Shown: in pieces, positions 1 through 13,188 of the stretch
How positions within the stretch are numbered: position 1 is the first letter of the stretch
Layout of the letters: every line of letters starts with the position of its first letter
Source: a virus
Taxonomy: Duplodnaviria > Heunggongvirae > Uroviricota > Caudoviricetes
Length of the DNA: 13,188 nucleotides
Virus record (IMG/VR): IMGVR_UViG_2617270976_000003
Location: 1-13,188 of that record
Strand: one strand, 5' to 3'
Position numbers and translations under genes: made by a program
Notes under the pieces: model-generated
What the model saw: only the letters and a program-made list of their open reading frames with translations
Database searches by the model: none
Told to the model about the DNA's origin: nothing

Positions 1-1
1 C

Positions 2-118
2 CAGAAAATCATTGATATGGCCATGAATGGCGTTGGATGCCGGGCAACAGCCCGCATTATGGGCGTTGGCCTCAACACGATTTTACGTCACTTAAAAAAC
101 TCAGGCCGCAGTCGGTAA
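2..118 (+). CDS. insA: IS1 InsA, C-terminal part only (5' end off-window)
   Basis: Frame from position 2 translates to [38 protein letters not shown], stop taa at 116-118; matches the InsA C-terminus as recalled. Confidence 0.85.
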
Positions 119-540
119 CCTCGCGCATACAGCCGGGCAGTGACGTCATCGTCTGCGCGGAAATGGACGAACAGTGGGGCTATGTCGGGGCTAAATCGCG
201 CCAGCGCTGGCTGTTTTACGCGTATGACAGTCTCCGGAAGACGGTTGTTGCGCACGTATTCGGTGAACGCACTATGGCGACGCTGGGGCGTCTTATGAGC
301 CTGCTGTCACCCTTTGACGTGGTGATATGGATGACGGATGGCTGGCCGCTGTATGAATCCCGCCTGAAGGGAAAGCTGCACGTAATCAGCAAGCGATATA
401 CGCAGCGAATTGAGCGGCATAACCTGAATCTGAGGCAGCACCTGGCACGGCTGGGACGGAAGTCGCTGTCGTTCTCAAAATCGGTGGAGCTGCATGACAA
501 AGTCATCGGGCATTATCTGAACATAAAACACTATCAATAA
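37..540 (+). CDS. insB: IS1 InsB (transposase catalytic part; expressed in vivo as the InsAB' frameshift fusion)
   Basis: 167-aa [28 protein letters not shown]...HYLNIKHYQ, which I recognise as the IS1 InsB sequence; it sits in the -1 frame relative to insA. Confidence 0.9.
94..100 (+). other. IS1 programmed -1 ribosomal frameshift slippery heptamer (A6C) producing the InsAB' transposase
   Basis: Sequence aaaaaac at 94-100 inside cttaaaaaactcagg, near the insA 3' end and overlapping the insB frame; this is the established IS1 recoding site. Confidence 0.8.
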
Positions 541-560
541 GTTGGAGTCATTACCTGTTA

Positions 561-1247
561 GTGGATGACTGTCCACGATGTGGATCACAAAAAATAGCGT
601 TTGATGTTAATGGGCTGAATTGCACTAGGGTTTACAATGCATTGGGCGGGGGTAAAACATACGAGTACGAGGTCTATTGTGTTTGCCGAGAGTGTCATAA
701 AACGACAATGTTTCTTTGCAGACCTTTAACGAAAAATAAAACTTTAGATGGCTATAATTGGGAAAGTGGAATATTCGGCTTAAAGGAAGTTGCAGAGGTT
801 GTTAGGCCTATATCACCGGCAGACTTAGCAGTAGAGGAGCCACCAGAGTTCTTACCTGAGCATATCAATAGTGCATATGAGGAAGGGGCGAAATGTTTGG
901 CTATAGGTTGTTATAATGCAGCAGCAACCATGTTTAGGCTTTGCCTTGATTATGCCACAAAAGGACTTCTTCCTGATGGGGAGCAAGGGCCTGCGCAAAA
1001 AATAAGGAGAAGCCTAGGGTTAAGAATGGAGTGGTTATTTGATAATCATCTACTGCCTGAAGCTTTAAGGGAACTAGCTGAATGCGTTAAAGATGACGGA
1101 AATGATGGAGCGCATGAAGGTATTTTGGATAAAGCTGCTGCTGAGGATCTTGAAGATTTTACCTATCTTTTTTTAGAACGGCTTTACACTGAACCTCAAC
1201 GCCTTATCGAAGCCAAGACAAGGCGTGAACAAAGAAGAAACAAATAA
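561..1247 (+). CDS. Cargo protein: N-terminal C4 zinc ribbon plus C-terminal domain with a GN..AH motif (DUF4145/HEPN-like?); candidate abortive-infection or defence effector
   Basis: 228-aa ORF in visibly AT-rich DNA between the IS1 end (555) and the portal gene stop (1256). Cys at residues 4, 7, 42, 45 (CPRC ... CREC) suggests a zinc ribbon. C-terminal ECVKDDGNDGAHEG (nt 1089-1115) resembles the GN..AH signature I associate with DUF4145-type domains. The start is uncertain: GTG at 561 is the first start after the IS1 end and the frame stays open upstream into IS1, so the native 5' end may have been removed by the insertion. Confidence 0.75.
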   Translation: MDDCPRCGSQKIAFDVNGLNCTRVYNALGGGKTYEYEVYCVCRECHKTTMFLCRPLTKNKTLDGYNWESGIFGLKEVAEVVRPISPADLAVEEPPEFLPEHINSAYEEGAKCLAIGCYNAAATMFRLCLDYATKGLLPDGEQGPAQKIRRSLGLRMEWLFDNHLLPEALRELAECVKDDGNDGAHEGILDKAAAEDLEDFTYLFLERLYTEPQRLIEAKTRREQRRNK

Positions 1248-1255
1248 GTTCGGAA

Positions 1256-2290
1256 TTATTCTTCTGAAAGAATATAGGGCGTAAATTTAATCACTTCTTC
1301 GCCCAGCCAGTCGTTCAGCTCTTGTAGCCTTTTTTGCAAGGGCGTTAATTCATTACGTACAAATACGCGACTGGCCTTCTCCACATCCCCAAACCCTCCA
1401 ACATTATTAGGCATAATCCCCATCATTTGCGGCGGCACGCGGTGCGCAGCCATCATGTCGTCGCGGCTGACATTTTTGATATTCAAAAACTCATCCTTCG
1501 CCGCGACTTCTGACAATGGGATGATCTGAAGCCCGTCTTTTTTGCCGTTAGGCGAGTACATAAACAGGTTGCGGAAGTTGCCTGGACCTTTGGCGCTTTT
1601 CATCGCATTGCGGAGGTTGTTCACATCCTCCTGGTTTTGCGCGGCATCGGTCATGTACATGATAAAGCCCGCATGACTGCCGTTAATGTAATACTTGCGA
1701 CGGAACAGCGTGGCGGACTCGTTGAGCAGGGCTGACGGAATGGCAGAAAGATAACCGGGCAGGCCGTAGATCTCCTGATTAATATCCGGTTCCATCAGAT
1801 GAAAAATGCTGCCTTTCGTGAACTGATACGGCTGGGTTGTCATACCGTATTGCACAAACCAGTAGGTATCCAGGTCTAACCCGCGTCGGGTGTATTTTGC
1901 CAGTGCAGGCTCAAGGGCGATAACTTCACCGAAGCGGTTCGTGCGTTTCTCCAGGTAGGCGTTACCAAAAACCAGATAGTCCTGCACAAAACGCGAAAAA
2001 GCCTGCTGGCTGAGCAGCGGGTGAGGGATGTAGGTGCTGGTCAGAATGTTGCACTTTACTGCAATCGGGGAACTATGATGCACGGCAGCGCGGAAGGTGC
2101 GCGCCAGTCCGTCAAAGCTGACGGGCGGCTCATACCAGCGGTCCATCTGTACGCATTCCACATAATCCAGCAGTTCTCGGCGGTCCAGAACAGGAACGGG
2201 ATCGCCGAAGCTGAATGCTTCGGCTGTAGTTTGACTTTTAAGCTGGATCTGTTTCGTCGCCGCAGCGCGGTTCTTCTTACTCTTTCCCAT
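1256..2290 (-). CDS. Q: Portal (capsid portal vertex) protein, P2 gpQ-like
   Basis: 344 aa from the ATG at 2290-2288, the same length as P2 gpQ; immediately downstream of the large terminase with a TGATG stop/start overlap, as in P2. The ORF track extends it by one TTG codon to 2293. Confidence 0.9.
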   Translation of the reverse strand: MGKSKKNRAAATKQIQLKSQTTAEAFSFGDPVPVLDRRELLDYVECVQMDRWYEPPVSFDGLARTFRAAVHHSSPIAVKCNILTSTYIPHPLLSQQAFSRFVQDYLVFGNAYLEKRTNRFGEVIALEPALAKYTRRGLDLDTYWFVQYGMTTQPYQFTKGSIFHLMEPDINQEIYGLPGYLSAIPSALLNESATLFRRKYYINGSHAGFIMYMTDAAQNQEDVNNLRNAMKSAKGPGNFRNLFMYSPNGKKDGLQIIPLSEVAAKDEFLNIKNVSRDDMMAAHRVPPQMMGIMPNNVGGFGDVEKASRVFVRNELTPLQKRLQELNDWLGEEVIKFTPYILSEE

Positions 2291-4056: not shown

Positions 4057-4102
4057 GGCACAAACCTACAGCCTTGAATGAAGGCTTTCCCCGCCTGCGG
4101 TT

Positions 4103-4120
4103 TGTGTGGTTGTCGGTACA
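4103..4120. promoter_or_regulatory. Candidate late-promoter activator (Ogr/Delta-type) binding element, TGT-N12-ACA, in the P/O divergent region
   Basis: tgtgtggttgtcggtaca fits the TGT-N12-ACA partial dyad reported around -55 of P2-family late promoters; its centre is ~87 bp upstream of the O start codon, compatible with a rightward promoter carrying a ~30-nt leader. Motif match only. Confidence 0.4.
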
Positions 4121-4198
4121 AATACCGCGCATTGTTTCACTGCCCCCATCACCGCAACCATAAGGCTCCAGTAAGTTTTTTCTAACGGAGCACGGCTC

Positions 4199-5032
4199 AT
4201 GACAGTGAAAGCAAAGCGTTTTCGCATCGGGGTGGAAGGTGCCACTACCGACGGACGCGAAATCCAGCGTGAATGGCTGGAACAGATGGCAGCCAGCTAC
4301 AACCCGGCGGTGTATACCGCGCTGATTAACCTTGAGCACATTAAGTCTTATCTGCCGGACAGCACGTTTAACCGCTACGGCAAGGTGACGGCGCTGTTTG
4401 CTGAAGAAATCGCGGAAGGTCCGCTGGCAGGCAAGATGGCACTGTATGCCGACGTTGAGCCAACGGAGTCCCTGGTGGAACTGGTGAAAAAAGGCCAGAA
4501 ATTATTCACCTCTATGGAAGTCAGCCCGAAGTTTGCTGATACGGGCAAAGCCTACCTGGTCGGCCTGGCTGCCACTGATGATCCCGCCAGTCTGGGTACG
4601 GAAATGCTGACATTCAGCGCCAGTGCAGCCCATAACCCGCTGGCAAACCGCAAGCAGAATCCTGCCAATCTTTTTACCGCTGCAGAGGAAACGGTGATCG
4701 AACTGGAAGAAATCCAGGAGGACAAGCCGTCCCTGTTTGCCCGCGTCACGGCGCTGTTTACCAAAAAAGAGCAGTCCGATGACGTCCGGTTCTCTGATGT
4801 GCATAAGGCCGTGGAACTGGTCGCCACTGAGCAGCAGAACCTGAGCACGCGCACCGAAAAATCCCTGTCTGAGCAGGAAGAACGCCTGTCTGAGCTGGAG
4901 ACTGCTCTGCAGGAGCAGCAAACCGCCTTTAACGAACTGGTGGATAAGCTGAGTCATGAAGACAGCCGCCAGGACTACCGCCAGCGTGCAACAGGCGGCA
5001 ACGCCCCCGCTGACACTCTGACCAATTGCTGA
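4199..5032 (+). CDS. O: Capsid scaffolding protein, P2 gpO-like
   Basis: 277-aa ORF; N-terminal FRIGVEG..DGR and C-terminal ATGG....TLTNC closely resemble P2 gpO as recalled; GGAG RBS upstream; position before the major capsid gene. Confidence 0.92.
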   Translation: MTVKAKRFRIGVEGATTDGREIQREWLEQMAASYNPAVYTALINLEHIKSYLPDSTFNRYGKVTALFAEEIAEGPLAGKMALYADVEPTESLVELVKKGQKLFTSMEVSPKFADTGKAYLVGLAATDDPASLGTEMLTFSASAAHNPLANRKQNPANLFTAAEETVIELEEIQEDKPSLFARVTALFTKKEQSDDVRFSDVHKAVELVATEQQNLSTRTEKSLSEQEERLSELETALQEQQTAFNELVDKLSHEDSRQDYRQRATGGNAPADTLTNC

Positions 5033-5048
5033 TGGAGCATAAAACCCA

Positions 5049-6107
5049 ATGAAGAAGAATACCCGTTTTGCTTTTAACGCTTACCTGCAGCAACTGGCGC
5101 GTCTGAACGGTGTGGCAGTTGAGGAACTGTCCAGCAAGTTCACCGTAGAGCCGTCTGTGCAGCAGACGCTGGAAGACCAGATCCAGCAGTCCGCCGCTTT
5201 CCTGACGCTGATTAACGTCACGCCAGTGACTGAGCAGTCCGGTCAGCTGCTTGGATTGGGTGTTGGCAGCACCATTGCCGGAACCACTGACACCACCGCG
5301 AAAGAGCGTGAACCTGTCGATCCGACGCTGATGAGCGATGTGGAATACAAATGCGAACAGACCAACTTTGACACGGTGCTGACCTACGCGAAGCTGGACC
5401 TGTGGGCGAAGTTTCAGGATTTCCAGGTGCGTATCCGTGACGCCATCGTGAAACGCCAGGCACTGGACCGCATCATGATCGGCTTTAACGGCGTGAAGCG
5501 TGCGAAAACCTCCAACCGTAGCGAAAACCCGCTGCTGCAGGATGTGAACAAAGGCTGGCTGCAGAAAATCCGTGAGGATGCACCGGATCACGTCATGGGC
5601 AGCACCACCACGGGCGGTGAAACCACACCGGGTGCGGTGAAAGTCGGGAAAGGTGGCGAATATGCCAACCTGGACGCCGTGGTGATGGATGCGGTCAATG
5701 AGCTTATCGACGTGGTCTACCAGGACGATGACGATCTGGTGGTGATTTGCGGTCGTGAGCTGCTGTCTGACAAGTATTTCCCGCTGGTCAACAAAGAGCA
5801 GGAAAACAGTGAAAAACTGGCTGCCGATATGATCATCAGTCAGAAACGCATGGGTGGCCTGCAGGCCGTGCGTGCGCCGTTCTTCCCGCCGAATGCGCTG
5901 CTGATCACCCGTCTGGATAACCTGTCCATTTACTGGCAGGAAGACACCCGCCGCCGTTCGGTTATCGACAACCCGAAACGTGACCGGATTGAAAATTTTG
6001 AATCCGTTAACGAAGCCTATGTGGTTGAGGACTACCGCTGCGCCGCACTGGTGGAAAACATCCAGATTGGCGACTTCAGCGCCGCCGCAGCAGAAACCGG
6101 AGCGTAA
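5049..6107 (+). CDS. N: Major capsid protein, P2 gpN-like
   Basis: 352-aa ORF with strong recalled similarity to P2 gpN throughout (e.g. RFAFNAYL, FTVEPSVQQTL, LDLWAKFQDFQVRIRDAIVKRQALD, GFNGVKRA, LAADMIISQKR); GGAG RBS. Confidence 0.95.
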   Translation: MKKNTRFAFNAYLQQLARLNGVAVEELSSKFTVEPSVQQTLEDQIQQSAAFLTLINVTPVTEQSGQLLGLGVGSTIAGTTDTTAKEREPVDPTLMSDVEYKCEQTNFDTVLTYAKLDLWAKFQDFQVRIRDAIVKRQALDRIMIGFNGVKRAKTSNRSENPLLQDVNKGWLQKIREDAPDHVMGSTTTGGETTPGAVKVGKGGEYANLDAVVMDAVNELIDVVYQDDDDLVVICGRELLSDKYFPLVNKEQENSEKLAADMIISQKRMGGLQAVRAPFFPPNALLITRLDNLSIYWQEDTRRRSVIDNPKRDRIENFESVNEAYVVEDYRCAALVENIQIGDFSAAAAETGA

Positions 6108-6110
6108 ACC

Positions 6111-6761
6111 ATGAGCCTGAGTCCCGCACGGCAGCATCGCCTGCGCGTTCAGGCTGAACAGGCCGCCCGCGAGGGCGGCAGCGTTCGCCACGCGTCGGGC
6201 TATGACCTGATGCTGCTGCAACTGGCAGAAGACCGCCGCCGTCTCAAGGGCGTTCAGTCCACGGTCAAAAAAGCGGAAATCAAGGTGGAGCTGCTGCCGA
6301 AATACGCCGCCTGGGCGGAGGGTGTCCTGGCTGCCGGAGGCGCTCAACAGGATGACGTGCTGATGTACGTGATGCTGTGGCGCATTGATGCCGGAGATTA
6401 TGTCGGAGCGCTGGAGATCGGGCGTCATGCCCTGCGTCATGGCTGGGTGATGCCGCTGGGTAACCGCAACGTGCAGACCGTGCTGGCAGAGGAAATGGCA
6501 GACGCAGCGCAGAGCGCAATGCTTGCCACTACCGGCTTTGATGTCGATCTGCTGCTGCAGACGCTGGAGCTGACAGACGGTCTGGATATGCCGGACCAGT
6601 CACGGGCGCGTCTGCATAAAGCGATTGGCGCTGTCCTGAGTGAAAGTAATCCGGCTTCCGCCCTTAATCATCTCAACCATGCGTTACAGCTCGATCCCCG
6701 CTGTGGCGTGAAAAAAGACAAACAGCAGCTGGAGCGCAGACTGCGCAATGACAGCCGCTGA
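6111..6761 (+). CDS. M: Terminase small (endonuclease) subunit, P2 gpM-like
   Basis: 216-aa ORF directly after N; recalled similarity to P2 gpM (RHA.GY..ML..LA.D, GAQQDDVLM.VMLWR.D.GD..GALEI); shorter C-terminus than P2 gpM (~247 aa). Confidence 0.9.
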   Translation: MSLSPARQHRLRVQAEQAAREGGSVRHASGYDLMLLQLAEDRRRLKGVQSTVKKAEIKVELLPKYAAWAEGVLAAGGAQQDDVLMYVMLWRIDAGDYVGALEIGRHALRHGWVMPLGNRNVQTVLAEEMADAAQSAMLATTGFDVDLLLQTLELTDGLDMPDQSRARLHKAIGAVLSESNPASALNHLNHALQLDPRCGVKKDKQQLERRLRNDSR

Positions 6762-6856
6762 CAGAACGTGCCCCCGCGCACGGGCGGCACGGGGTGGCGA
6801 AAGGCACTGCCACATCAAAACCCCGTCCACCGCCCTTTATTTCAGGAGAAAGCAGC

Positions 6857-7321
6857 ATGAAGTTTGTTGCGCCAGAACAGGCACCGGAACAGGCGGAAAT
6901 CATCAGAAATACGCCGTTCTGGCCTGATGTGGACCTGTCGGAGTTTCGCAGTGTCATGCGCACTGACGGCACGGTGACGCAGCCGCGTTTAAAGCAGGTT
7001 GCGCTGTCGGCAATTTCGGAGGTCAACGCAGAGCTGTATGAGTTTCGCAGACGCCAGCAGATGCTGGGGTATGCCTCGCTGGCAGAAGTCCCGGCGGAAC
7101 AACTGGACGGCAAAAGCGAGCGCATTCAGCACTATTTCAACGCGGTTTACTGCTGGGCACGCGCCATGCTCAACGAACGTTACCAGGACTATGACGCCAC
7201 GGCATCCGGTGCGAAGCGAGGCGAGGAACTGGCGGAAGCAAGCGGTGATTTATGGCGTGACGCCCGCTGGGCCATCAGCCGGGTGCAGGATGCGCCGCAC
7301 TGCACAGTGGAGCTTATCTGA
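6857..7321 (+). CDS. L: Head completion/stabilisation protein, P2 gpL-like
   Basis: Start chosen at the ATG at 6857, which has an AGGAG RBS 8 nt upstream; the ORF-track start at 6794 has no RBS and would add a non-homologous N-terminus. ELWRD.RWA..R.Q..P.C.V..I at the C-terminus resembles gpL. Confidence 0.88.
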   Translation: MKFVAPEQAPEQAEIIRNTPFWPDVDLSEFRSVMRTDGTVTQPRLKQVALSAISEVNAELYEFRRRQQMLGYASLAEVPAEQLDGKSERIQHYFNAVYCWARAMLNERYQDYDATASGAKRGEELAEASGDLWRDARWAISRVQDAPHCTVELI

Positions 7322-7524
7322 TGAAAGTGCGTGCGCATCAGTATGACACGGTGGACGCACTTTGCTGGCGTCATTACGGGCGCACGCAGGGTGTCACGGA
7401 GCAGGTACTGAAGGCAAATCCGGGGCTTGCCGAATACGGCCCCTTTTTACCTCACGGGCTGCAGGTGGAGCTGCCGGACATTCCGACAACCACCACCGTG
7501 CAGACCGTCCAGCTATGGGACTGA
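7321..7524 (+). CDS. X: Tail protein X (LysM-like), P2 gpX-like
   Basis: 67 aa, the same length as P2 gpX; ATGA stop/start overlap with L; conserved position before the lysis cassette. Confidence 0.85.
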   Translation: MKVRAHQYDTVDALCWRHYGRTQGVTEQVLKANPGLAEYGPFLPHGLQVELPDIPTTTTVQTVQLWD

Positions 7525-7527
7525 ATT

Positions 7528-7743
7528 ATGACGCTTGAGCGAATCAGCGCCTTTATCACGTATTGCATCGCCGTCGTGCTGGCCTGGCTGGGCGATTTGT
7601 CCATCAAGGATGCCTCAACGCTGGGCGGCCTGATGATTGGTGTGCTGATGCTGGCTATCAACTGGTACTACAAACACAAAGCCTACCAGCTTCTGCGCGA
7701 CGGGCAGATTTCGCGGGAGGACTATGAATCCATCAATCGTTAA
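7528..7743 (+). CDS. Holin, small two-TMD class (possibly a pinholin given the SAR endolysin downstream)
   Basis: 71 aa with two hydrophobic segments (ISAFITYCIAVVLAWLG and LGGLMIGVLMLAINWYY) and a charged C-terminal tail; overlaps the endolysin start by 20 nt. Confidence 0.8.
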   Translation: MTLERISAFITYCIAVVLAWLGDLSIKDASTLGGLMIGVLMLAINWYYKHKAYQLLRDGQISREDYESINR

Positions 7744-8239
7744 ACGCTGCCTTGTCGGGGCCGTGCTGGCTATTGCTGCCACGCTGCCGGGGTTTCAGCA
7801 GCTTCACACCTCCGTGGAGGGGCTGAAACTGATTGCCGATTACGAAGGTTGTCGTCTGCAGCCGTATCAGTGCAGCGCGGGTGTCTGGACCGACGGCATT
7901 GGAAATACGTCGGGCGTCATTCCCGGCAAAACAATCACGGAACGACAGGCAGCAGAAGGGCTTATTTCCAACGTGCTGCGTGTGGAGCGGGCGCTGGAAA
8001 GGTGTGTGAAGCAACAGCCGCCGCAGAAGGTATATGACGCTACGGTGTCGTTTGCCTTCAACGTGGGAACGGGCAATGCCTGCAGTTCTACGCTGGTGAA
8101 ATTGCTCAATCAGCGGCGCTGGGCAGAAGCGTGCCGACAGTTGCCGCGCTGGGTTTATGTGAAAGGTGTGTTTAATCAGGGGCTGGATAACCGCCGTGCG
8201 CGGGAGATGGCCTGGTGCCTTAAAGGAGCTGGATTATGA
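7724..8239 (+). CDS. SAR (signal-anchor-release) endolysin, T4-lysozyme fold, P1 Lyz-like
   Basis: 171 aa. N-terminal Gly/Ala-rich weakly hydrophobic segment with a Cys (KRCLVGAVLAIAATLPG) followed by EGLKLIADYEGCRLQPYQCSAGVWTDGIGNT, which closely matches the P1 Lyz catalytic region as I recall it, including the Cys pair. GGAGG RBS. Confidence 0.88.
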   Translation: MNPSIVKRCLVGAVLAIAATLPGFQQLHTSVEGLKLIADYEGCRLQPYQCSAGVWTDGIGNTSGVIPGKTITERQAAEGLISNVLRVERALERCVKQQPPQKVYDATVSFAFNVGTGNACSSTLVKLLNQRRWAEACRQLPRWVYVKGVFNQGLDNRRAREMAWCLKGAGL

Positions 8240-8664
8240 CGCGTGCGCTGGCGGTAGTGGCGGCGCTGGCACTCGTTGCGCTGGGCTGGCAGTCGTGGCG
8301 GCTTAACAGCGCCAGCCACACCATCGAAACGCAGCGCACGGCGCTGAAAAGTAAAGCGCACGAACTAACGAAGAAAAATAGCCAGCTGATCAGTCTGTCC
8401 ATTCTGGCTGAAACCAATAACCGGGAGCAGGCGCGGCTCTATGCCGAAGCAGAACAAACCAGCGCGCTGCTGAGACAACGACAACACCGGATCGAGGAAC
8501 TGAAACGTGAGAACGAGGATTTACGCCGCTGGGCTGATACTCCTTTGCCTGCTGACATTATCCGGCTGCGGGAACGTCCGGCACTCACCGGAGGTGCAGC
8601 TTACCGTCAGTGGTTGTCCGCGAGTGACGCCGTGTCGGCTGGAGCAGGCAGCGCCGCGCACTAA
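8236..8664 (+). CDS. lysB: Inner-membrane spanin (i-spanin), LysB/Rz-like
   Basis: 142 aa, N-terminal TMD (LAVVAALALVALGW) then coiled-coil-like charged region; AAAGGAG RBS; contains the embedded lysC start in another frame. Confidence 0.85.
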   Translation: MTRALAVVAALALVALGWQSWRLNSASHTIETQRTALKSKAHELTKKNSQLISLSILAETNNREQARLYAEAEQTSALLRQRQHRIEELKRENEDLRRWADTPLPADIIRLRERPALTGGAAYRQWLSASDAVSAGAGSAAH

Positions 8665-8797
8665 CGGTGATCTGAACGCATTGCTGGATGAAACGGAGGC
8701 CGCCTGGGCGGTCTGTGCAGACAAAGTGGACATGATTATTGCGTGTCAGGAGCGAAACAGTGAACAAACCACAATCCCTGCGCCACGCCCTCAATAA
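8507..8797 (+). CDS. lysC: Outer-membrane lipoprotein spanin (o-spanin), LysC/Rz1-like
   Basis: GTG-initiated 96-aa ORF in the +1 frame overlapping the lysB 3' end; signal peptide with lipobox LTLSGC. Start codon choice is tentative. Confidence 0.75.
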   Translation: MRTRIYAAGLILLCLLTLSGCGNVRHSPEVQLTVSGCPRVTPCRLEQAAPRTNGDLNALLDETEAAWAVCADKVDMIIACQERNSEQTTIPAPRPQ

Positions 8798-9191
8798 AGC
8801 AGTGCCTTATGTCCGCAATAACCCGGATAAGCTGCATCTGTTTGTGGATAACGGTTCGCTGGTTGCCACGGGGGCCAGCTCCATGTCATGGGAGTACCGT
8901 TATACCCTCAACGTGGTGATTGAGGATTTCAGCGGCGACCAGAATCTGCTGATGGCCCCGGTTTTGCTGTGGCTGCGTGATAACCAGCCCGATGCCATCA
9001 ATAATCCGGCGTTACGGGAAAAGTTATTCACCTTTGAGGTGGATATTCTGCGCAACGATGTCTGTGATATCAGCCTCAACCTGCAACTGACGGAACGTGT
9101 GCTGGTCAGCACTGACGGAAGTGTGTCGAGCGTTGAAGCAGTAGCGGAACCCGATGAACCTGAAGAAATGTGGACGGTGAAACGTGGCTGA
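8760..9191 (+). CDS. R: Tail completion protein, P2 gpR-like
   Basis: Start placed at GTG 8760 (AGGAG 8 nt upstream); the ORF-track TTG at 8739 adds 7 non-homologous residues. FVDNGS, RYTLNVV, LLWLR.NQPD and LTER.LVS resemble gpR. Confidence 0.85.
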   Translation: MNKPQSLRHALNKAVPYVRNNPDKLHLFVDNGSLVATGASSMSWEYRYTLNVVIEDFSGDQNLLMAPVLLWLRDNQPDAINNPALREKLFTFEVDILRNDVCDISLNLQLTERVLVSTDGSVSSVEAVAEPDEPEEMWTVKRG

Positions 9192-9636
9192 ACTGCAGAA
9201 GGTGGACGACTGGCTGAGTGCTTTGCTGGCGAATCTGGAACCAGCCGCAAGAAGCCGAATGATGCGCCAGCTGGCGCAGGAACTGCGCCGGACACAGCAG
9301 CAGAATATCAGGATGCAGCGCAATCCAGATGGCAGCAGTTATGAGCCGCGCAGGGTAACAGCACGCAGCAAGAAGGGGCGCATCAAACGTCAGATGTTTG
9401 CAAAGCTGCGCACCACAAAATACCTGAGAACTGCCGCCAGCGCGGATTCTGCCAGCGTACAGTTTGAAGGTAAGGTACAGCGTATTGCCCGTGTTCATCA
9501 CTACGGTCTGCGCGATCGCGTCAGTCCAAAGGGGGGAGTCATTAAGTATCCATCCCGAAAATTGCTGGGTTTAAATGAACATACTGAAAATGAAGTAAGA
9601 GATTTACTTTTAAAGTATTTATTGATGAAAAATTAG
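9184..9636 (+). CDS. S: Tail completion protein, P2 gpS-like
   Basis: GTG start overlapping the R stop; 150 aa, as P2 gpS; DWLS.L..NLEP and ARVHH.GLRDRV resemble gpS. The last ~30 codons are encoded by markedly AT-rich DNA (see findings). Confidence 0.88.
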   Translation: MAELQKVDDWLSALLANLEPAARSRMMRQLAQELRRTQQQNIRMQRNPDGSSYEPRRVTARSKKGRIKRQMFAKLRTTKYLRTAASADSASVQFEGKVQRIARVHHYGLRDRVSPKGGVIKYPSRKLLGLNEHTENEVRDLLLKYLLMKN

Positions 9637-9641
9637 AATGT

Positions 9642-10172
9642 TTACGCTCTTAATAAACTTAAATAACTTTTTATGCTTTGGCAAAAAGGGAAAAGGTCTA
9701 TTTTAATTTTCCAGTTTTTTTTGTTTTGAACCCCAGAAGCAATAATAGAACCGTCCCAATATTTTATTCCATTTTTGCCGGTCTTTTTTGTTAACTCAAA
9801 ACTTAATGCGTGAATAATTTTATTGCAGCATTCGCGTATAGAATCTTTAACATGACCATCTATAACAAAAAGTATATTTTCATGTTCTTCAAATGCTTCT
9901 TTCTCAGGTGAGTAATCTGGGTTCCACTCATGTTCACTAGTGTCTTGGAGAATTCGTAGTTTTGTACAAAGGCTAATAAGATTGTTGCTAATGGTATATT
10001 CCAACCATCCGTTGTACGATAACTCCTCCATTTCAAATTCAGTTACTATAGAACCATCATATACTTTCTGTGTGGAATATATACGCTGTAAATAAAATTC
10101 AGATGAACAGCATAATTGCTCAATTATTCTTGCGTGTTCTTCTATAGCGTAATAATCAATTGGATGGCTCAT
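9642..10172 (-). CDS. Hypothetical protein of unknown function in a very AT-rich island; candidate defence or accessory cargo
   Basis: 176 aa from the ATG at 10172-10170 (MSHPIDYY...), with an AAAGG RBS about 7 nt upstream. The ORF-track start at 10211 has no RBS and overlaps the dyad element at 10204-10221. Stop is 5 bp from the S stop (convergent). No homologue recognised; contains RECCNKIIH (R113, N117, H121; nt 9810-9836). Confidence 0.75.
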   Translation of the reverse strand: MSHPIDYYAIEEHARIIEQLCCSSEFYLQRIYSTQKVYDGSIVTEFEMEELSYNGWLEYTISNNLISLCTKLRILQDTSEHEWNPDYSPEKEAFEEHENILFVIDGHVKDSIRECCNKIIHALSFELTKKTGKNGIKYWDGSIIASGVQNKKNWKIKIDLFPFCQSIKSYLSLLRA

Positions 10173-10203
10173 TCTTTTACCTTTCTTTGATTGGAATTGT
10201 ATT

Positions 10204-10221
10204 TGTGTCATTTACCACACA
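10204..10221. promoter_or_regulatory. Candidate late-promoter activator site (TGTGT-N8-ACACA inverted repeat, fits TGT-N12-ACA) between the cargo gene and V
   Basis: tgtgtcatttaccacaca is a perfect 5-bp inverted repeat and fits the P2-family late-promoter dyad. Caveat: its centre is only ~55 bp upstream of the V start codon, which leaves no room for a leader if the -55 rule holds, so spacing is atypical. Confidence 0.35.
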
Positions 10222-10267
10222 AGGACGTATTGATGCCATAGATTCAAGGTCCGTGCAACCTAACCCT

Positions 10268-10846
10268 ATGAACGCACAACTAACCGAAATCATGCGCCTT
10301 ATCACCAACCTGATCCGCACTGGTGTAGTCACCGAAGTGGACCGGGAAAACTGGCTTTGCCGGGTGAAAACGGGCGAGCTTGAAACCAACTGGATCAGCT
10401 GGCTGACGCTGCGTGCCGGGAATGCCCGCACATGGTGGCGACCATCGGAAGGTGAGCAGGTGGTGCTGCTGAGTCTGGGCGGCAATCTGGAAACTGCCTT
10501 TGCGCTGCCCGCTGTCTATTCGAATCAGTTCGCACCACCGTCGACGTCGGCAGACGCCTGCGTGACAGAACATCCTGACGGCGGCTGGTTTGAATACGAA
10601 CCCACTACCGGGCGCTGGTATGTCAGGGGCATCAAATCAATGGTCATTGAGGCCGCTGACAACATCACCATGAAAACCAGTGAGTTTGTACTGGAGGCTG
10701 ACCGCACGCGCATTAACAGCGAAGTGGTGATCAATGGTGGCGTTACCCAGGGCGGCGGAGCGATGAGTTCTAACGGGATCGTGGTTGATGCGCATCAGCA
10801 TACTGACGTCCTGAAAGGCGGCGACACAACCGGAGGCCCGGTATGA
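10268..10846 (+). CDS. V: Baseplate central spike protein, P2 gpV-like
   Basis: Start set at the ATG at 10268 (MNAQLTEIMRLITNLIRTG), which aligns with the gpV N-terminus as recalled; the ORF-track start at 10160 lies inside the reverse cargo gene and is rejected. RAG..RTWW.PS.GEQV....GG.L.TAF.LP.YS matches gpV. Confidence 0.88.
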   Translation: MNAQLTEIMRLITNLIRTGVVTEVDRENWLCRVKTGELETNWISWLTLRAGNARTWWRPSEGEQVVLLSLGGNLETAFALPAVYSNQFAPPSTSADACVTEHPDGGWFEYEPTTGRWYVRGIKSMVIEAADNITMKTSEFVLEADRTRINSEVVINGGVTQGGGAMSSNGIVVDAHQHTDVLKGGDTTGGPV

Positions 10847-11202
10847 CGCTTTATAGCGGGATGAACAATACCAGCGGTAAAGCCATTACTGATATTGATC
10901 ATCTGCGCCAGTCGGTGCGGGACATTTTGCTGACGCCGCAGGGTAGCCGCATTGCCCGTCGGGAATATGGTTCCCTGCTGTCGGCACTGATAGACCAGCC
11001 ACAAAATCCGGCATTACGCCTGCAGGTCATGTCGGCAGTGTATGTGGCGCTGAGTCGCTGGGAGCCACGGCTGACGCTGGATTCCATCACCATTAACAGC
11101 AATTTTGACGGTTCAATGGTGGTGGAGCTGACCGGGCGGCGTAATAACGGTGTGCCTGTTTCCCTTTCCGTATCAACAGGAGCAGAGAATGGCAGTGATT
11201 GA
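10843..11202 (+). CDS. W: Baseplate wedge protein (gp25/lysozyme-like fold), P2 gpW-like
   Basis: 119 aa; ATGA overlap with V; GGAGG RBS; REYGSLL and DQPQ.PAL resemble gpW. Confidence 0.88.
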   Translation: MTLYSGMNNTSGKAITDIDHLRQSVRDILLTPQGSRIARREYGSLLSALIDQPQNPALRLQVMSAVYVALSRWEPRLTLDSITINSNFDGSMVVELTGRRNNGVPVSLSVSTGAENGSD

Positions 11203-12097
11203 CCTTTCGCAGTTGCCTGCGCCGCAGATTGTGGATGTGCCGGACTTTGAGACGCTGCTTGCCGAACGCAAGGCAGAATTTGTGGCGCTTCATCCGAAAG
11301 ATGAGCAGGAAGCAGTGATCCGCACGCTGGAACTGGAATCTGAACCCGTCACCAAATTGTTGCAGGAGAATGCTTACCGTGAGTTGCTTCTGCGCCAGCG
11401 CATTAACGAAGCTGCGCAGGCGGTGATGGTGGCTTATGCCATAGGGGGCGATCTGGACCAGCTCGCCGCCAACTACAACGTGAAACGCCTGACGGTGACG
11501 CCTGCTGATAATGACGCTGTGCCGCCCGTTGCAGCTGTGATGGAAAGCGATGAAGCGTTACGCCTGCGTGTGCCTGCAGCCTTTGAAGGGCTTTCAGTTG
11601 CGGGGCCAACTGCAGCTTATGAATTTCATGCCCGAAGCGCCGACGGTCGGGTGGCGGATGCCAGTGCAACCAGCCCGGCACCTGCAGAGGTGGTGCTGAC
11701 TGTCCTTAGCCGCGAAGGCGATGGAACTGCAGAAAAAGACCTGCTGGACGTGGTGGAAAAAGCTCTGAACAGTGAGAACGTCCGCCCGGTGGCTGACCGT
11801 CTTACGGTTCGCAGCGCAGAAATCATCCCGTATCGCGTGGAAGCCACCATTTTTCTCTATCCGGGACCGGAAGCAGAGCCGGTAATGGCAGCGGCAAAAG
11901 CCAGTCTGCAGAAGTACATTGCCAGCCAGACGAGGCTTGGTCGGGATATTCGCCGTAGCGCCATCTTTGCTGCTCTGCATGTTGAGGGTGTTCAACGTGT
12001 GGAACTGGCTTCTCCGCTGGCGGATGTGGTCCTGAACAAAACACAGGCGGCATCATGTACGCAGTGGAGCGTAACCAACGGAGGAACGGATGAATAG
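11189..12097 (+). CDS. J: Baseplate assembly protein, P2 gpJ-like
   Basis: ATG at 11189 with AGGAG RBS gives 302 aa, the length of P2 gpJ; the ORF-track start at 11150 is an upstream extension. Confidence 0.88.
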   Translation: MAVIDLSQLPAPQIVDVPDFETLLAERKAEFVALHPKDEQEAVIRTLELESEPVTKLLQENAYRELLLRQRINEAAQAVMVAYAIGGDLDQLAANYNVKRLTVTPADNDAVPPVAAVMESDEALRLRVPAAFEGLSVAGPTAAYEFHARSADGRVADASATSPAPAEVVLTVLSREGDGTAEKDLLDVVEKALNSENVRPVADRLTVRSAEIIPYRVEATIFLYPGPEAEPVMAAAKASLQKYIASQTRLGRDIRRSAIFAALHVEGVQRVELASPLADVVLNKTQAASCTQWSVTNGGTDE

Positions 12098-12695
12098 TCT
12101 GCTGCCACCGGGTTCAACTTCACTGGAGCGCCGACTGGCGCAAACCTGTAGCGGGATTTCTGATCTGCAGGTGCCGCTGCGTGACTTGTGGAATCCGGCT
12201 ACCTGTCCGGTCAGCTTCCTGCCTTATCTCGCCTGGGCGTTCTCTGTGGATCGCTGGGACGAGGGCTGGACAGAAAGCGTCAAACGCCAGGTAGTGAAGG
12301 ATGCTTTTTATATTCATCAGCATAAAGGAACTACCAGTGCCGTGCGGCGGGTGGTGGAACCGTTCGGATTCCTGATCCGCATTATTGAGTGGTGGCAGAC
12401 CGGAGAAACACCGGGCACGTTTCGCCTGGATATCGGCGTGCAGGACCAGGGCATCACTGAAGATACCTATCTGGAACTTGAGCGGCTGATAAGCGATGCC
12501 AAACCATGTAGCCGTCACATGATCGGCATGTCCATCAATCTGCAGACCAGCGGTCCGCATTGGGTGGGGGCCGCCAGCTATCTTGGCGAAGAAATCACGA
12601 TCTATCCGTATATCAACGAAACAATTATTTCCGGCGGCACCGCGCATGAAGGCGGGGCGGTCCATGTTATTGACACAATGAGAGTGAATCCATGA
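12090..12695 (+). CDS. I: Baseplate/tail protein, P2 gpI-like
   Basis: 201 aa; overlaps J end; LWNP.TCP, LPYLAWAFSVDRWDE.W, HKGT, RRVVEP.G, PGTFRLDIGV and DAKP.SRH match gpI; somewhat longer than P2 gpI (~176 aa). Confidence 0.88.
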   Translation: MNSLLPPGSTSLERRLAQTCSGISDLQVPLRDLWNPATCPVSFLPYLAWAFSVDRWDEGWTESVKRQVVKDAFYIHQHKGTTSAVRRVVEPFGFLIRIIEWWQTGETPGTFRLDIGVQDQGITEDTYLELERLISDAKPCSRHMIGMSINLQTSGPHWVGAASYLGEEITIYPYINETIISGGTAHEGGAVHVIDTMRVNP

Positions 12696-13188
12696 GCACA
12701 AAATTTTATACCCTGCTGACGGATATTGGCGCGGCGAAACTTGCCAGCGCCGCCGCGCTCGGTGTGCCGCTAAAAATTACTCATATGGCGGTGGGCGATG
12801 GCGGCGGAACATTGCCAACGCCGGACGCCAAGCAGACAGCATTGGTAAATGAGAAACGCCGGGCTGCGCTGAATATGCTCTATATCGACCCGCAGAACAG
12901 CAGCCAGATTATTGCTGAACAGGTGATCCCTGAAAACGAGGGCGGTTGGTGGATACGTGAAGTGGGCCTGTTTGATGAGTCCGGGGCATTGATTGCCGTG
13001 GGCAACTGCCCGGAAAGCTATAAGCCGCAACTGGCTGAAGGCAGCGGGCGTACCCAGACCGTGCGCATGGTGCTGATTACCAGCAGCACGGACAATATCA
13101 CCCTGAAAATCGACCCTGCCGTAGTGCTGGCAACCCGCAAGTATGTGGATGACAAGGTACTGGAGCTGAAGGTGTACGTGGATGATCA
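12692..13188 (+). CDS. H: Tail fibre protein, N-terminal part (P2 gpH-like); 3' end beyond window
   Basis: ATG at 12692 opens a frame with no stop to the window end, so it is absent from the ORF track. Translation MSTKFYTLLTDIGAAKLA...MAVGDGGG...AESYKP.LAEGSGR.QT.RMV matches the conserved gpH N-terminal baseplate-attachment domain. Confidence 0.85.
   Translation, partial: MSTKFYTLLTDIGAAKLASAAALGVPLKITHMAVGDGGGTLPTPDAKQTALVNEKRRAALNMLYIDPQNSSQIIAEQVIPENEGGWWIREVGLFDESGALIAVGNCPESYKPQLAEGSGRTQTVRMVLITSSTDNITLKIDPAVVLATRKYVDDKVLELKVYVDD

What the first reader, a model, noticed from the sequence alone, without database searches (positions are those of the whole stretch)
9541..9650. Recombination junctions appear to lie inside the 3' ends of S and Q; cargo genes are convergent with 5-8 bp gaps
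The last ~30 codons of S (from about 9541) and the last ~15 codons of Q (1256 to about 1300) are encoded by AT-rich DNA unlike the rest of those genes, as if each cargo module arrived with its own version of the flanking gene's C-terminus. Both cargo genes terminate 5 bp (S) and 8 bp (Q) from the stop codon of the convergent phage gene, leaving no room for a terminator. Convergent transcription into late structural genes could let late-gene expression silence the cargo gene, or the reverse, by transcriptional interference.
Basis: partly seen in the sequence, partly recalled or inferred. Interest (0 to 1): 0.45.

Follow-up and report, generated by a model that had tools for sequence, protein, structure and literature searches.

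The report
Phage cargo cassettes carry gene ends
In this P2-like prophage, the two accessory ("cargo") genes are swapped between phages as blocks that also carry their own AT-rich version of the last 35-45 codons of the neighbouring essential gene. This sharpens the map of two known phage hotspots but is not a new kind of system.

Summary
The window is a P2-like prophage, 99.9% identical to Escherichia phage Cartapus, with an IS1 at its left edge.

**Observation.** It holds well for S and weakly for Q.
- S shows a GC change point at 9570 (0 of 1000 shuffles match it). Homology to cargo-free relatives stops at 9532/9533.
- In Q, composition alone is not significant (78 of 1000 shuffles).
- The stop-to-stop gaps are 5 and 8 nt, and neither junction has a terminator-like site.

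**Interpretation.**
- Among 83 S loci, each of 7 S-V fillings has its own S C-terminus.
- Among 85 Q loci there are 56 different Q tails, and they track the cargo. Tail identity is 0.59 between loci with unrelated cargo and 0.96 with the same cargo, while the Q body stays at 0.94.
- In E. coli genomes with a diverged backbone, the cargo plus tail is 99-100% identical to the window, while the S and Q bodies are 92-94%.
- The shared Q block reaches 1366-1393, so it spans 37-46 codons rather than about 15.
- The S-V cassette also carries its own late promoter for V. The Q-side cassette ends at cos.

**Mechanism.** Cassettes most likely move by homologous recombination in the conserved gene bodies. 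The diverged tails cannot recombine away from the cargo.

Silencing by transcriptional interference remains untested.

The parts
1..555 (+). IS1 (3' part, cut by the window edge). It is inserted 7 nt into the start of cargo gene 1. It is not part of the cassette, but it removes that gene's start codon and promoter.
   Evidence: Pfam DDE_Tnp_IS1, E = 5.9e-78. Homology to phage Cartapus starts at window 556 = record 169, and the Cartapus CDS starts at record 162.
556..1247 (+). Cargo 1: a DUF4145 protein with an N-terminal CxxC...CxxC motif. It is convergent with Q and lies between cos and Q in the intact phage. GC is 0.42.
   Evidence: Pfam DUF4145, E = 4.4e-7. PADLOC PD-T7-4, E = 1.2e-6. phrog_1305, E = 1.2e-51. 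Cartapus annotation. Present in 45 of 1268 E. coli genomes that have this Q.
1248..1255 (.). The 8-nt spacer GTTCGGAA between the stop of cargo 1 and the stop of Q.
   Evidence: The spacer is 8, 8, 8 and 6 nt in four other genomes that carry DUF4145 cargo, including two diverged phage lineages.
1256..1366 (-). Q tail: the last ~37 codons of the portal gene, which travel with cargo 1.
   Evidence: In E. coli H22 and RM10740 there is no mismatch between 1032/1110 and 1366/1393. Q codons 251-315 are 83-87% identical and the Q body is 92-94%. Homology to phages with other cargo begins at 1314-1350.
1256..2290 (-). Q, the portal protein gene.
   Evidence: Pfam Phage_portal. Cartapus annotation 869-1903 plus an offset of 387.
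9184..9636 (+). S, the tail completion / virion morphogenesis gene.
   Evidence: Pfam Phage_tail_S, E = 4e-42. The match covers residues 3-146 of 150, so the tail is part of the domain.
9533..9636 (+). S tail: the last 34 codons. It is AT-rich (GC3 about 0.29) and specific to this cassette.
   Evidence: Homology to cargo-free relatives ends at 9532/9533. The protein is about 98% identical up to residue 114 and about 40% after it, but still alignable. The tail is 99.1% identical on diverged backbones whose S body has 22 mismatches in 349 nt (93.7%).
9637..9641 (.). The 5-nt spacer AATGT between the S stop and the cargo 2 stop.
   Evidence: The spacing is 5, 5 and -12 nt in the Salmonella, Enterobacter and Pantoea homologues.
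9642..10172 (-). Cargo 2: a 176-aa protein of unknown function (phrog_18838), convergent with S. An alternative start at 10211 would give 189 aa. GC is 0.32.
   Evidence: phrog_18838, E = 6e-136. No hit in Pfam, PADLOC or NCBIfam. Homologues are 176-177 aa. AlphaFold model with pLDDT 90. The only fold matches are weak helical bundles, including HEPN toxins.
10173..10254 (.). Cassette-specific region upstream of V. It must hold the cargo 2 promoter (minus strand) and the late promoter of the V operon (plus strand).
   Evidence: Homology to cargo-free relatives resumes only at 10255. Every cassette type has different sequence here, right up to the V start codon.
10204..10221 (+). TGTGTCATTTACCACACA, a TGT-N12-ACA dyad 64 nt upstream of the V start. 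It is the likely activator (Ogr-type) box of the late promoter.
   Evidence: The same motif lies at -64 to -66 in 6 of the 7 S-V fillings and at -78 in the seventh; their sequences are otherwise unrelated. P2 has an annotated activator site at the equivalent place.
10268..10846 (+). V, the baseplate spike gene. It forms the right-hand homology arm.
   Evidence: Pfam Phage_base_V. Diversity among the S-V alleles is only 0.05 in V codons 1-10. The first V mismatch on the diverged backbones is at 10324.

Best explanation
**What it is.** The window holds two accessory-gene cassettes sitting in two variable sites of a P2-like phage.

**Extent of each cassette.** Each is wider than its cargo gene.
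- The S-V cassette runs from about 9533 to 10254. It contains the last 34 codons of S, the reverse-oriented cargo gene, that gene's promoter region, and the late promoter of the V operon with its activator box.
- The Q-side cassette runs from cos (outside the window, beyond the IS1) through the DUF4145 gene and into the last 37-46 codons of Q.

**How it moves (shown by comparison).** A cassette passes between related phages as one block. Crossovers fall in the conserved body of S and the 5' end of V. On the Q side they fall in the body of Q.

**Why the tails stay with the cargo (inferred).**
- The exchange is ordinary homologous recombination.
- The C-terminal tails of S and Q tolerate change, and between cassette types they have diverged to about 50-60% DNA identity.
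- No crossover can occur between such diverged tails, so each tail stays linked to its cargo.
- The cassette alleles are much older than the surrounding backbone, which recombination keeps homogenised.

**What remains unexplained or untested.**
- The AT-richness of the tails matches the cargo and persists across genera. Its cause is not established.
- The convergent, terminator-less layout means that late transcription from S or Q runs antisense through the cargo, and cargo transcription runs antisense into the late genes. Whether this regulates anything has not been tested.
For: **Identity of the window**
- Window 556-13188 is 99.92% identical to phage Cartapus.

**S side**
- Cargo-free relatives have 152 nt where the window has 722 nt (9533-10254).
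- The S protein is about 98% identical up to residue 114 and about 40% after it. Fifteen tail positions are invariant among the three sequences compared.
- The Pfam S domain spans residues 3-146.
- Seven S-V fillings each have their own S tail.
- Tail GC is 0.29-0.47 with cargo and 0.56 for the empty site.
- Nucleotide diversity among the alleles is 0.05-0.08 up to codon 100, then 0.10, 0.22, 0.33, 0.45 and 0.52.
- Three E. coli genomes carry the same cassette on another backbone. The S body has 22 mismatches in 349 nt, the last at 9507. The cassette has 6 mismatches in 722 nt. The next V mismatch is at 10324.
- Homologues of cargo 2 in Salmonella (74% aa), Enterobacter (60%) and Pantoea (51%) sit at the same site. 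Their S tails are AT-rich (GC 0.33-0.38) on GC-rich S bodies (0.60-0.62). The Salmonella and Enterobacter tails share the IKYP.R motif with the window.

**Q side**
- There are 56 tails among 85 loci.
- 3251 pairs with unrelated cargo have tail identity of mean 0.59 (maximum 0.78) and body identity of 0.94.
- 59 pairs with the same cargo have tail identity of 0.96.
- Cargo alleles that are 68-82% identical have tails that are 0.61-0.85 identical.
- Synonymous difference rises from 0.24 (body) to 0.51 (codons 251-300), 0.73 (301-315) and 0.85 (tail). Non-synonymous difference is 0.004, 0.009, 0.07 and 0.29.
- Tail residues N327, W329, F337 and Y340 never vary.
- Genomes H22 and RM10740 have cargo 99% identical and the last 30 Q codons 100% identical, with the Q body at 92-94%.
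- Homology between cassette types resumes exactly at the cos sequence.

**Independent assortment of the two sites**
- One contig has the window's Q-side cassette but an empty S-V site (L089 and L071).

**No signs of site-specific insertion**
- No repeats bracket either cassette.
Against: - Recombination was not observed directly. It is inferred from mosaic identity patterns.
- A simple model of old linked alleles does not explain why the tails are AT-rich. The empty-site tails are not (GC3 0.59 against 0.33).
- The AT-richness persists on GC-rich S bodies in four genera. That hints at some additional force or function.
- The sampled loci are the 80 closest relatives in one viral collection, so they are not independent.
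- I could not read the two older papers on these variable loci (Nilsson 2004, Odegrip 2006). They may have described the borders.
Confidence: 0.8

Rival explanations
1. The tails are working parts of the cassette and are co-adapted to their cargo. For example, they might hold the 3' end or terminator of the cargo transcript on the opposite strand. They might extend an H-NS-bound AT-rich patch. Or they might alter the portal or S protein so that the phage's own defence gene does not act on it.
For: - The tails stay AT-rich on GC-rich gene bodies across four genera, even though their sequence has diverged to 50-60%.
- The 5-nt and 8-nt stop-to-stop spacings are conserved within each cargo family.
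- The AT bias changes amino-acid content. In cargo-linked Q tails FYMINK is 0.38 and GARP 0.12. In near-empty tails they are 0.30 and 0.22.
- A preprint abstract reports that H-NS binds AT-rich immunity loci (listed; text not readable).
Against: - The same tail linkage is seen for about 50 unrelated Q-side cargo types and 6 unrelated S-V cargo types. A cargo-specific protein function is therefore unlikely.
- The non-coding promoter region on the V side is linked in the same way, and physical linkage alone explains that.
- Tail positions N327, W329, F337 and Y340 are invariant, and pN/pS is 0.34. This fits conservation of the ordinary protein function.
Confidence: 0.1
2. On the Q side, the exchange uses the cohesive end at cos as one recombination end and needs only one homologous crossover, in Q. 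This is the idea floated by Rousset et al. 2022. It complements the main explanation rather than excluding it.
For: - The boundary at cos is sharp. Every cassette type is unique right up to the conserved cos sequence.
- The boundary in Q is graded.
- In the phage record the cargo starts about 100 nt from the 59-nt cos feature at the end of the linear genome.
- Rousset et al. propose this route (PMC9122126).
Against: - A sharp boundary at cos is also expected simply because cos is conserved and the sequence next to it is not.
- The S-V cassette shows the same behaviour with no cos nearby.
Confidence: 0.3
3. The AT-rich tails and cargo were imported recently from a P2-like phage of an AT-rich host, and the junction marks that single foreign insertion.
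For: - The tail and cargo share low GC (0.29 and 0.32) against 0.57 for the phage backbone.
- The identity drop at 9533 is sharp.
Against: - No deposited phage has an S tail closer than 56% aa identity to the window's.
- No close relative of cargo 2 was found in species-representative genomes.
- The known homologues are all in Enterobacterales, at the same site, and already on GC-rich S bodies.
- Synonymous divergence rises gradually over about 100 Q codons rather than in a single step.
Confidence: 0.1
4. The tails are not homologous to the normal C-termini. Insertion of foreign DNA replaced the gene ends by illegitimate recombination. Alternatively, the tails are hypermutated by a targeted mechanism such as a diversity-generating retroelement.
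For: DNA identity in the tails is close to random (0.45-0.6).
Against: - The tails align without trouble and keep invariant residues.
- The Pfam S domain runs to residue 146 of 150.
- No repeat of the tail exists nearby that could serve as a template.
- Tails co-diverge with their cargo instead of varying among copies of one cassette. Tail identity is 0.96 for the same cargo.
Confidence: 0.02
5. Transcription reading: the missing terminators do not cause mutual interference. Cargo transcripts that run antisense into S or Q are untranslated and are stopped by Rho. Late transcripts simply read through the cargo into the V operon.
For: - Empty-site relatives also have no separate terminator between S and V. 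Their 68-nt spacer holds only the activator dyad.
- The antisense RNA of the S tail would be C-rich and G-poor, because the plus strand has 21 G and 10 C.
- That Rho ends untranslated antisense transcripts is general knowledge, not tested here.
Against: - The strong orientation bias of the cargo suggests that transcription direction matters (7 of 7, and at least 53 of 54, convergent).
- Most Q-side cassettes do have a hairpin (33 of 56 against 0.9% of shuffles). Termination there therefore appears to be selected for.
Confidence: 0.4

Closest known systems
Phage P2 orf30 locus between S and V (NC_001895)
   Same: A non-essential reverse-oriented ORF lies between S and V and is convergent with S. 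The activator site of the V promoter lies just beyond it.
   Different: - P2 has a 71-nt spacer with an annotated rho-independent terminator after S.
- The window has 5 nt and no terminator-like site.
- The cargo protein is from a different, uncharacterised family (phrog_18838), with no match in Pfam, PADLOC or NCBIfam.
The gpA-gpQ (cos-proximal) defence hotspot of P2-like phages (Rousset et al. 2022, PMC9122126; Moura de Sousa et al. 2026, PMC13586616; Vassallo et al. 2022, PMC9519451)
   Same: The location next to the portal gene and cos is the same. The gene content is highly variable between close relatives, and the cargo is AT-rich. A DUF4145 protein with a weak match to PD-T7-4 is present here.
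   Different: - Those papers treat the hotspot as the space between core genes and leave the exchange mechanism open.
- Here the borders are resolved: cos on one side and the last 37-46 codons of Q on the other, with a Q tail specific to each cargo.
- In P2 itself, from the annotation and my own knowledge, old and tin lie on the other side of cos and the cos-Q site is empty.
Morons of tailed phages (Hendrix and colleagues; from my own knowledge)
   Same: An extra gene of different base composition sits between two conserved phage genes and is expressed from the prophage.
   Different: A moron is described as a self-contained unit with its own promoter and terminator, inserted between genes. 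Here no terminator is found, and the unit's borders lie inside an essential gene and include an essential phage promoter.
Hitch-hiking of flanking genes with hypervariable bacterial loci, such as gnd next to the O-antigen cluster in E. coli (from my own knowledge)
   Same: Old, very different alleles are exchanged by homologous recombination. Linked flanking sequence shows raised synonymous divergence that decays with distance.
   Different: The scale here is tens to hundreds of bases inside a phage. The linked flank is the end of an essential structural gene, which has shifted in base and amino-acid composition.
Transcriptional interference between convergent promoters in coliphage 186 (Callen et al. 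2004; from my own knowledge)
   Same: Face-to-face transcription units in a P2-family phage, where a strong promoter can depress a weak one.
   Different: That case involves the lysis-lysogeny switch promoters and was measured. Here interference between late operons and cargo genes is only a possibility.

Membership tests
Variable accessory/defence hotspot of P2-like phages | Lies at a fixed position between conserved core genes of a P2-like phage. | tested here: met
   Cargo 1 lies between cos and Q. Cargo 2 lies between S and V. The gene order matches P2 and Cartapus.
Variable accessory/defence hotspot of P2-like phages | Close relatives carry different, unrelated genes, or nothing, at the same position. 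| tested here: met
   There are 7 S-V fillings and about 50 Q-side fillings among near-identical backbones. Only 22 of 1054 and 45 of 1268 E. coli genomes share the window's cassettes.
Variable accessory/defence hotspot of P2-like phages | The cargo has anti-phage (or other host-benefiting) activity. | not testable with these tools
   [not shown]
Moron (self-contained inserted transcription unit) | Own terminator downstream of the gene. | tested here: not met
   No terminator-like site in 9300-10400 or 540-1600. The longest perfect stem after the Q stop is 3 bp.
Moron (self-contained inserted transcription unit) | Inserted between genes, leaving the neighbours intact. | tested here: not met
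   The unit's borders lie at S codon ~116 and Q codon ~300-308. The unit also replaces the V promoter region.
Moron (self-contained inserted transcription unit) | Own promoter. | tested here: inconclusive
   The consensus scan finds no sigma-70-like site upstream of cargo 2, and the upstream region of cargo 1 is replaced by IS1. Such a scan cannot exclude a promoter.
Site-specific cassette (integron-like, transposon or integrase-borne) | Conserved repeats or a recombination site at both borders, with junctions at a fixed nucleotide. | tested here: not met
   No repeats bracket either cassette. Junction positions differ between cassette types and between genomes: 9508-9532 against codons ~127-131 in S, and 1314 to 1393 in Q.
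Diversity-generating retroelement target (variable 3' end of a gene) | A template repeat of the variable region nearby, plus a reverse transcriptase. | tested here: not met
   No second copy of the S or Q tail lies within about 1 kb. The tails are constant within a cassette type. Not every ORF of the window was screened for a reverse transcriptase.
Allelic exchange by homologous recombination with linked flanks | The same allele occurs on diverged backbones, with a block of near-identity reaching into both flanks. | tested here: met
   The S-V cassette is 99.2% identical where the S body is 93.7%. The Q-side cargo is 99% and the Q tail 100% identical where the Q body is 92-94%.
Allelic exchange by homologous recombination with linked flanks | Synonymous divergence rises towards the variable locus while the protein stays conserved. 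| tested here: met
   In Q, pS is 0.24, 0.51, 0.73 and 0.85, with pN 0.004 and 0.009 in the first two bins.

The most novel reading that the evidence does not exclude
The cassettes may be true plug-in modules whose borders are selected, not accidental. Each would bring a matched C-terminus for the portal or the tail-completion protein, plus its own late promoter. The AT-rich tail would serve the cargo. It might act as the cargo transcript's landing zone, as part of an H-NS-silenced patch, or as a change that keeps the phage's own portal or S protein from triggering its own defence gene. Late transcription running antisense through the cargo would then switch the defence off during the phage's own lytic growth.
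Probability: 0.1. Interest if true: 0.7.

Novelty: new member of a known kind. Interest (0 to 1): 0.4.

Why it matters
- **Mechanism.** The variable sites of P2-like phages are a major store of anti-phage genes, and how their contents are swapped is an open question in the papers I could read. These data add a concrete picture: a graded border inside Q or S, a sharp border at cos or at the V start codon, and cargo-specific gene ends.
- **Practical consequences.**
  - Hotspot-mining pipelines that cut at gene borders will miss part of each unit.
  - Portal or S protein clusters will split by cargo type rather than by phage lineage.
  - The Q or S tail could serve as a quick marker for the cassette type.
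- **Experiments.** The layout suggests simple tail-swap and read-through experiments.
- **Limits.** The phenomenon fits ordinary recombination and linkage, so it refines a known system rather than revealing a new one.

Tried and rejected
- **Cargo 2 in species-representative genomes.** A scan found no close relative. The protein search then found a small family confined to Enterobacterales.
- **A 'home' lineage for the window's S tail.** No deposited phage gives better than 56% aa identity.
- **Rfam on the whole window.** No hits.
- **Repeats at the cassette borders.** Nothing meaningful. Site-specific insertion and DGR-type mutagenesis were therefore set aside.
- **First terminator count.** My first count (52 of 56) used loose rules. 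I replaced it with a perfect-stem measure that has a shuffle control.
- **Diversity around cos.** The ungapped diversity figures around cos are distorted by offset hit starts. Only the visual boundary is used.
- **Papers not held.** Nilsson et al. 2004, Odegrip et al. 2006 and the 2026 H-NS preprint could not be read.
Full report
**What the window is.** Positions 556-13188 match Escherichia phage Cartapus (Peduoviridae, a P2-like phage) at 99.92%. The gene order is that of P2: Q, P, O, N, M, L, X, Y, K, lysis genes, R, S, V, W, J, I. Stretches of the window are identical to the E. coli LF82 chromosome and to several other E. coli genomes. Positions 1-555 are the end of an IS1. It sits 7 nt inside the first cargo gene as annotated in Cartapus.

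Two genes are not part of the P2 core:
- A DUF4145 protein at 556/561-1247 (+) is convergent with the portal gene Q (1256-2290, -).
- A 176-aa protein of unknown function at 9642-10172 (-) is convergent with the tail-completion gene S (9184-9636, +) and divergent from V (10268-10846, +).

**Checking the observation.**
- In S, GC drops from 0.57 to 0.13 over the last 100 nt. The best change point is 9570, and none of 1000 codon shuffles reaches its score. GC3 is 0.61 before codon 115 and 0.29 after.
However, 78 of 1000 shuffles do as well, so composition alone does not establish a Q junction.
- The stop-to-stop gaps are 5 nt (AATGT) and 8 nt (GTTCGGAA).
- Consensus scans find no terminator-like site on either strand around either junction.

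**Cargo-free relatives.**
- Klebsiella phage KP12 and Escherichia phage 500465-1 have S followed by 68 nt and then V.
- Their homology to the window ends at 9532/9533 and resumes at 10255. They have 152 nt where the window has 722.
- The S proteins are about 98% identical up to residue 114. After that they are about 40% identical but align cleanly, with conserved K116, G117, Y122, R125, L127, L128, G129, N131 and others.
- The Pfam S domain covers residues 3-146 of 150.
- The window's S tail is therefore a diverged, AT-rich homologue of the normal tail, not foreign sequence.

**Survey of the S-V site.**
- Among 80 S loci from a viral contig collection plus the window and two phages, the S-V interval takes seven forms: 68 (empty), 631 (the window's), 748, 797, 848, 1894 and 2163 nt. 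There is also a one-off frameshift variant of the empty form (50 nt, L052).
- Each form has its own S tail.
- All six cargo forms are reverse-oriented and AT-rich (GC 0.32-0.34). Their S tails have GC 0.29-0.47, against 0.56 for the empty form.
- The cargo stop lies 5, -4, 1, 17, 55 or 194 nt from the S stop.
- Diversity among the seven alleles is 0.02-0.08 up to codon 100, then 0.10, 0.22, 0.33, 0.45 and 0.52.
- On the other side, every form has unrelated sequence right up to the V start codon. Six of the seven forms nevertheless keep a TGT-N12-ACA dyad at -64 to -66, and the seventh has one at -78.
- In the window this dyad is at 10204-10221. The only other copies outside IS1 and the P gene body lie around the P/O divergent promoter region.
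- P2 has an annotated activator-binding site at the equivalent place.
- The cassette therefore also carries its own version of the late promoter for the V operon.
- V itself is conserved from its first codon (diversity 0.05).

**Survey of the Q side.**
- Among 85 Q loci there are 56 different tails (last 30 residues). They go with the size and content of the segment between the Q stop and cos.
- For 3251 pairs with unrelated cargo, tail DNA identity averages 0.59 (maximum 0.78), while the Q body is 0.94.
- For 59 pairs with the same cargo, tail identity is 0.96.
- Where the cargo itself is a diverged allele (68-82% identical), the tail has diverged with it (0.61-0.85).
- Synonymous difference rises from 0.24 in the body to 0.51 (codons 251-300), 0.73 (301-315) and 0.85 (tail). 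Non-synonymous difference is 0.004, 0.009, 0.07 and 0.29.
- The rise therefore starts about 100 codons before the stop, in a region where the protein does not change. This is the pattern expected for sequence linked to old, very different alleles.
- N327, W329, F337 and Y340 never vary, so the tails remain under selection for portal function.
- Tail GC3 averages 0.33 with cargo, 0.59 at two near-empty sites, and 0.65 in the body.
- The bias reaches the protein. FYMINK is 0.38 and GARP 0.12 with cargo, against 0.30 and 0.22 at near-empty sites.
- On the far side, homology between cassette types resumes exactly at the cos sequence.

**Direct evidence that the tail travels with the cargo.**
- Two genomes (H22, RM10740) carry the DUF4145 cassette. 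The cargo is 99% identical and the last 30 Q codons are 100% identical. No mismatch occurs before 1367 or 1394. Q codons 251-315 are 83-87% identical, and the body is 92-94%.
- The two sites assort independently. One contig has the window's Q-side cassette and an empty S-V site (L089 and L071). Strain CEA212U shows the same combination.

**Depth of the association.**
- Homologues of cargo 2 form a small family.
- Those from Salmonella (74% aa identity), Enterobacter (60%) and Pantoea (51%) all sit between V and S of P2-like prophages. Their stops lie 5, 5 and -12 nt from the S stop.
- Their S bodies are GC-rich (0.60-0.62) and their S tails AT-rich (0.33-0.38).
- The Salmonella and Enterobacter tails share an IKYP.R motif with the window's, unlike the empty-site tail. 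The Salmonella promoter region also resembles the window's.
- Diverged DUF4145 cassettes in two other P2-like lineages keep an 8-nt or 6-nt spacer.
- The units are therefore old, and the tight layout is a property of each cargo family.

**How it most likely works.**
- *Shown:* the unit of exchange includes the end of S or Q and, for S-V, the V promoter. The junctions lie in the gene bodies and vary in position. No repeats mark the borders.
- *Inferred:* exchange is by homologous recombination. The tails tolerate change and have diverged too far from one another to recombine, so they stay attached to their cargo. Meanwhile the rest of the gene is homogenised across the phage population.
- For the Q side, the sharp border at cos fits the suggestion of Rousset et al. 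that a cos end plus one homologous crossover could suffice (PMC9122126). It does not prove it.
- The cause of the persistent AT-richness is open. No AT-rich donor phage was found. Selection for an AT-rich patch or for a function on the opposite strand is possible.

**Transcription.**
- In P2 the S-orf30 spacer holds an annotated terminator, and Q is followed by one.
- 33 of 56 Q-side cassette types have a perfect hairpin of 8 bp or more within 70 nt after the Q stop, against 0.9% of shuffles. The window's type has none.
- The window's layout is therefore unusual on the Q side.
- Cargo orientation is strongly biased. All 7 S-V types (counting P2 orf30) and at least 53 of 54 Q-side types are convergent with the late gene.
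- This suggests that transcription direction matters. Whether late transcription silences the cargo, or Rho simply ends the antisense transcripts, cannot be decided here.

**Comparison with what is known.**
- The gpA-gpQ region next to cos is a well-described defence hotspot (PMC9122126, PMC9519451, PMC13586616). The S-V site holds the non-essential orf30 in P2.
- The papers I could read define the hotspots as the space between core genes. They do not mention breakpoints or C-terminal variation, and they leave the mechanism open.
- Two older papers on these loci were not available.
- The result is a refinement of a known system: a new member with unusually tight junctions, plus a general rule about where the cassette borders lie.

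Noticed in passing
window 1-560: An IS1 ends at 555, 7 nt inside the DUF4145 gene as annotated in phage Cartapus (ATGGTTA|TGTTAGTGG). The gene has lost its start codon and upstream region, and only an in-frame GTG at 561 remains. The cargo may therefore be inactive in this host, or driven from the IS1.
   Followed up: partly
[not shown]
   Followed up: partly
window 4045-4062, 4103-4120 and 10204-10221: TGT-N12-ACA dyads lie at the P/O divergent promoter region and 64 nt before the V start. These are the places where P2 has annotated activator-binding sites for its late promoters. Two other copies (212, 3662) lie in IS1 and inside P.
   Followed up: partly
L088-L167 and L001 (cos region; outside the window): In nearly all relatives the Q-side cargo sits between cos and Q, at the extreme left end of the packaged genome. 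In P2 itself this site is empty, and from my own knowledge old and tin lie on the other side of cos. The published 'gpA-gpQ hotspot' therefore seems to contain two separate sites.
   Followed up: partly
L172 1-179 and L173 1-291; L174 1-325: E. coli genomes that share the DUF4145 cassette have different further genes upstream of it (a P-loop NTPase, a hypothetical protein, a DUF2971 protein). The region beyond this cargo therefore varies independently.
   Followed up: no
L052 3501-3965: One empty-site S allele has an extra G, which extends S by six codons (…AGGSLYQH) into the activator dyad of the V promoter.
   Followed up: no
one search hits H138-H153 (E. coli genomes): Other fillings of the same S-V site in E. 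coli are annotated as DUF6216, TIR-domain and FRG-domain proteins. This suggests the site is also a defence-gene hotspot.
   Followed up: no
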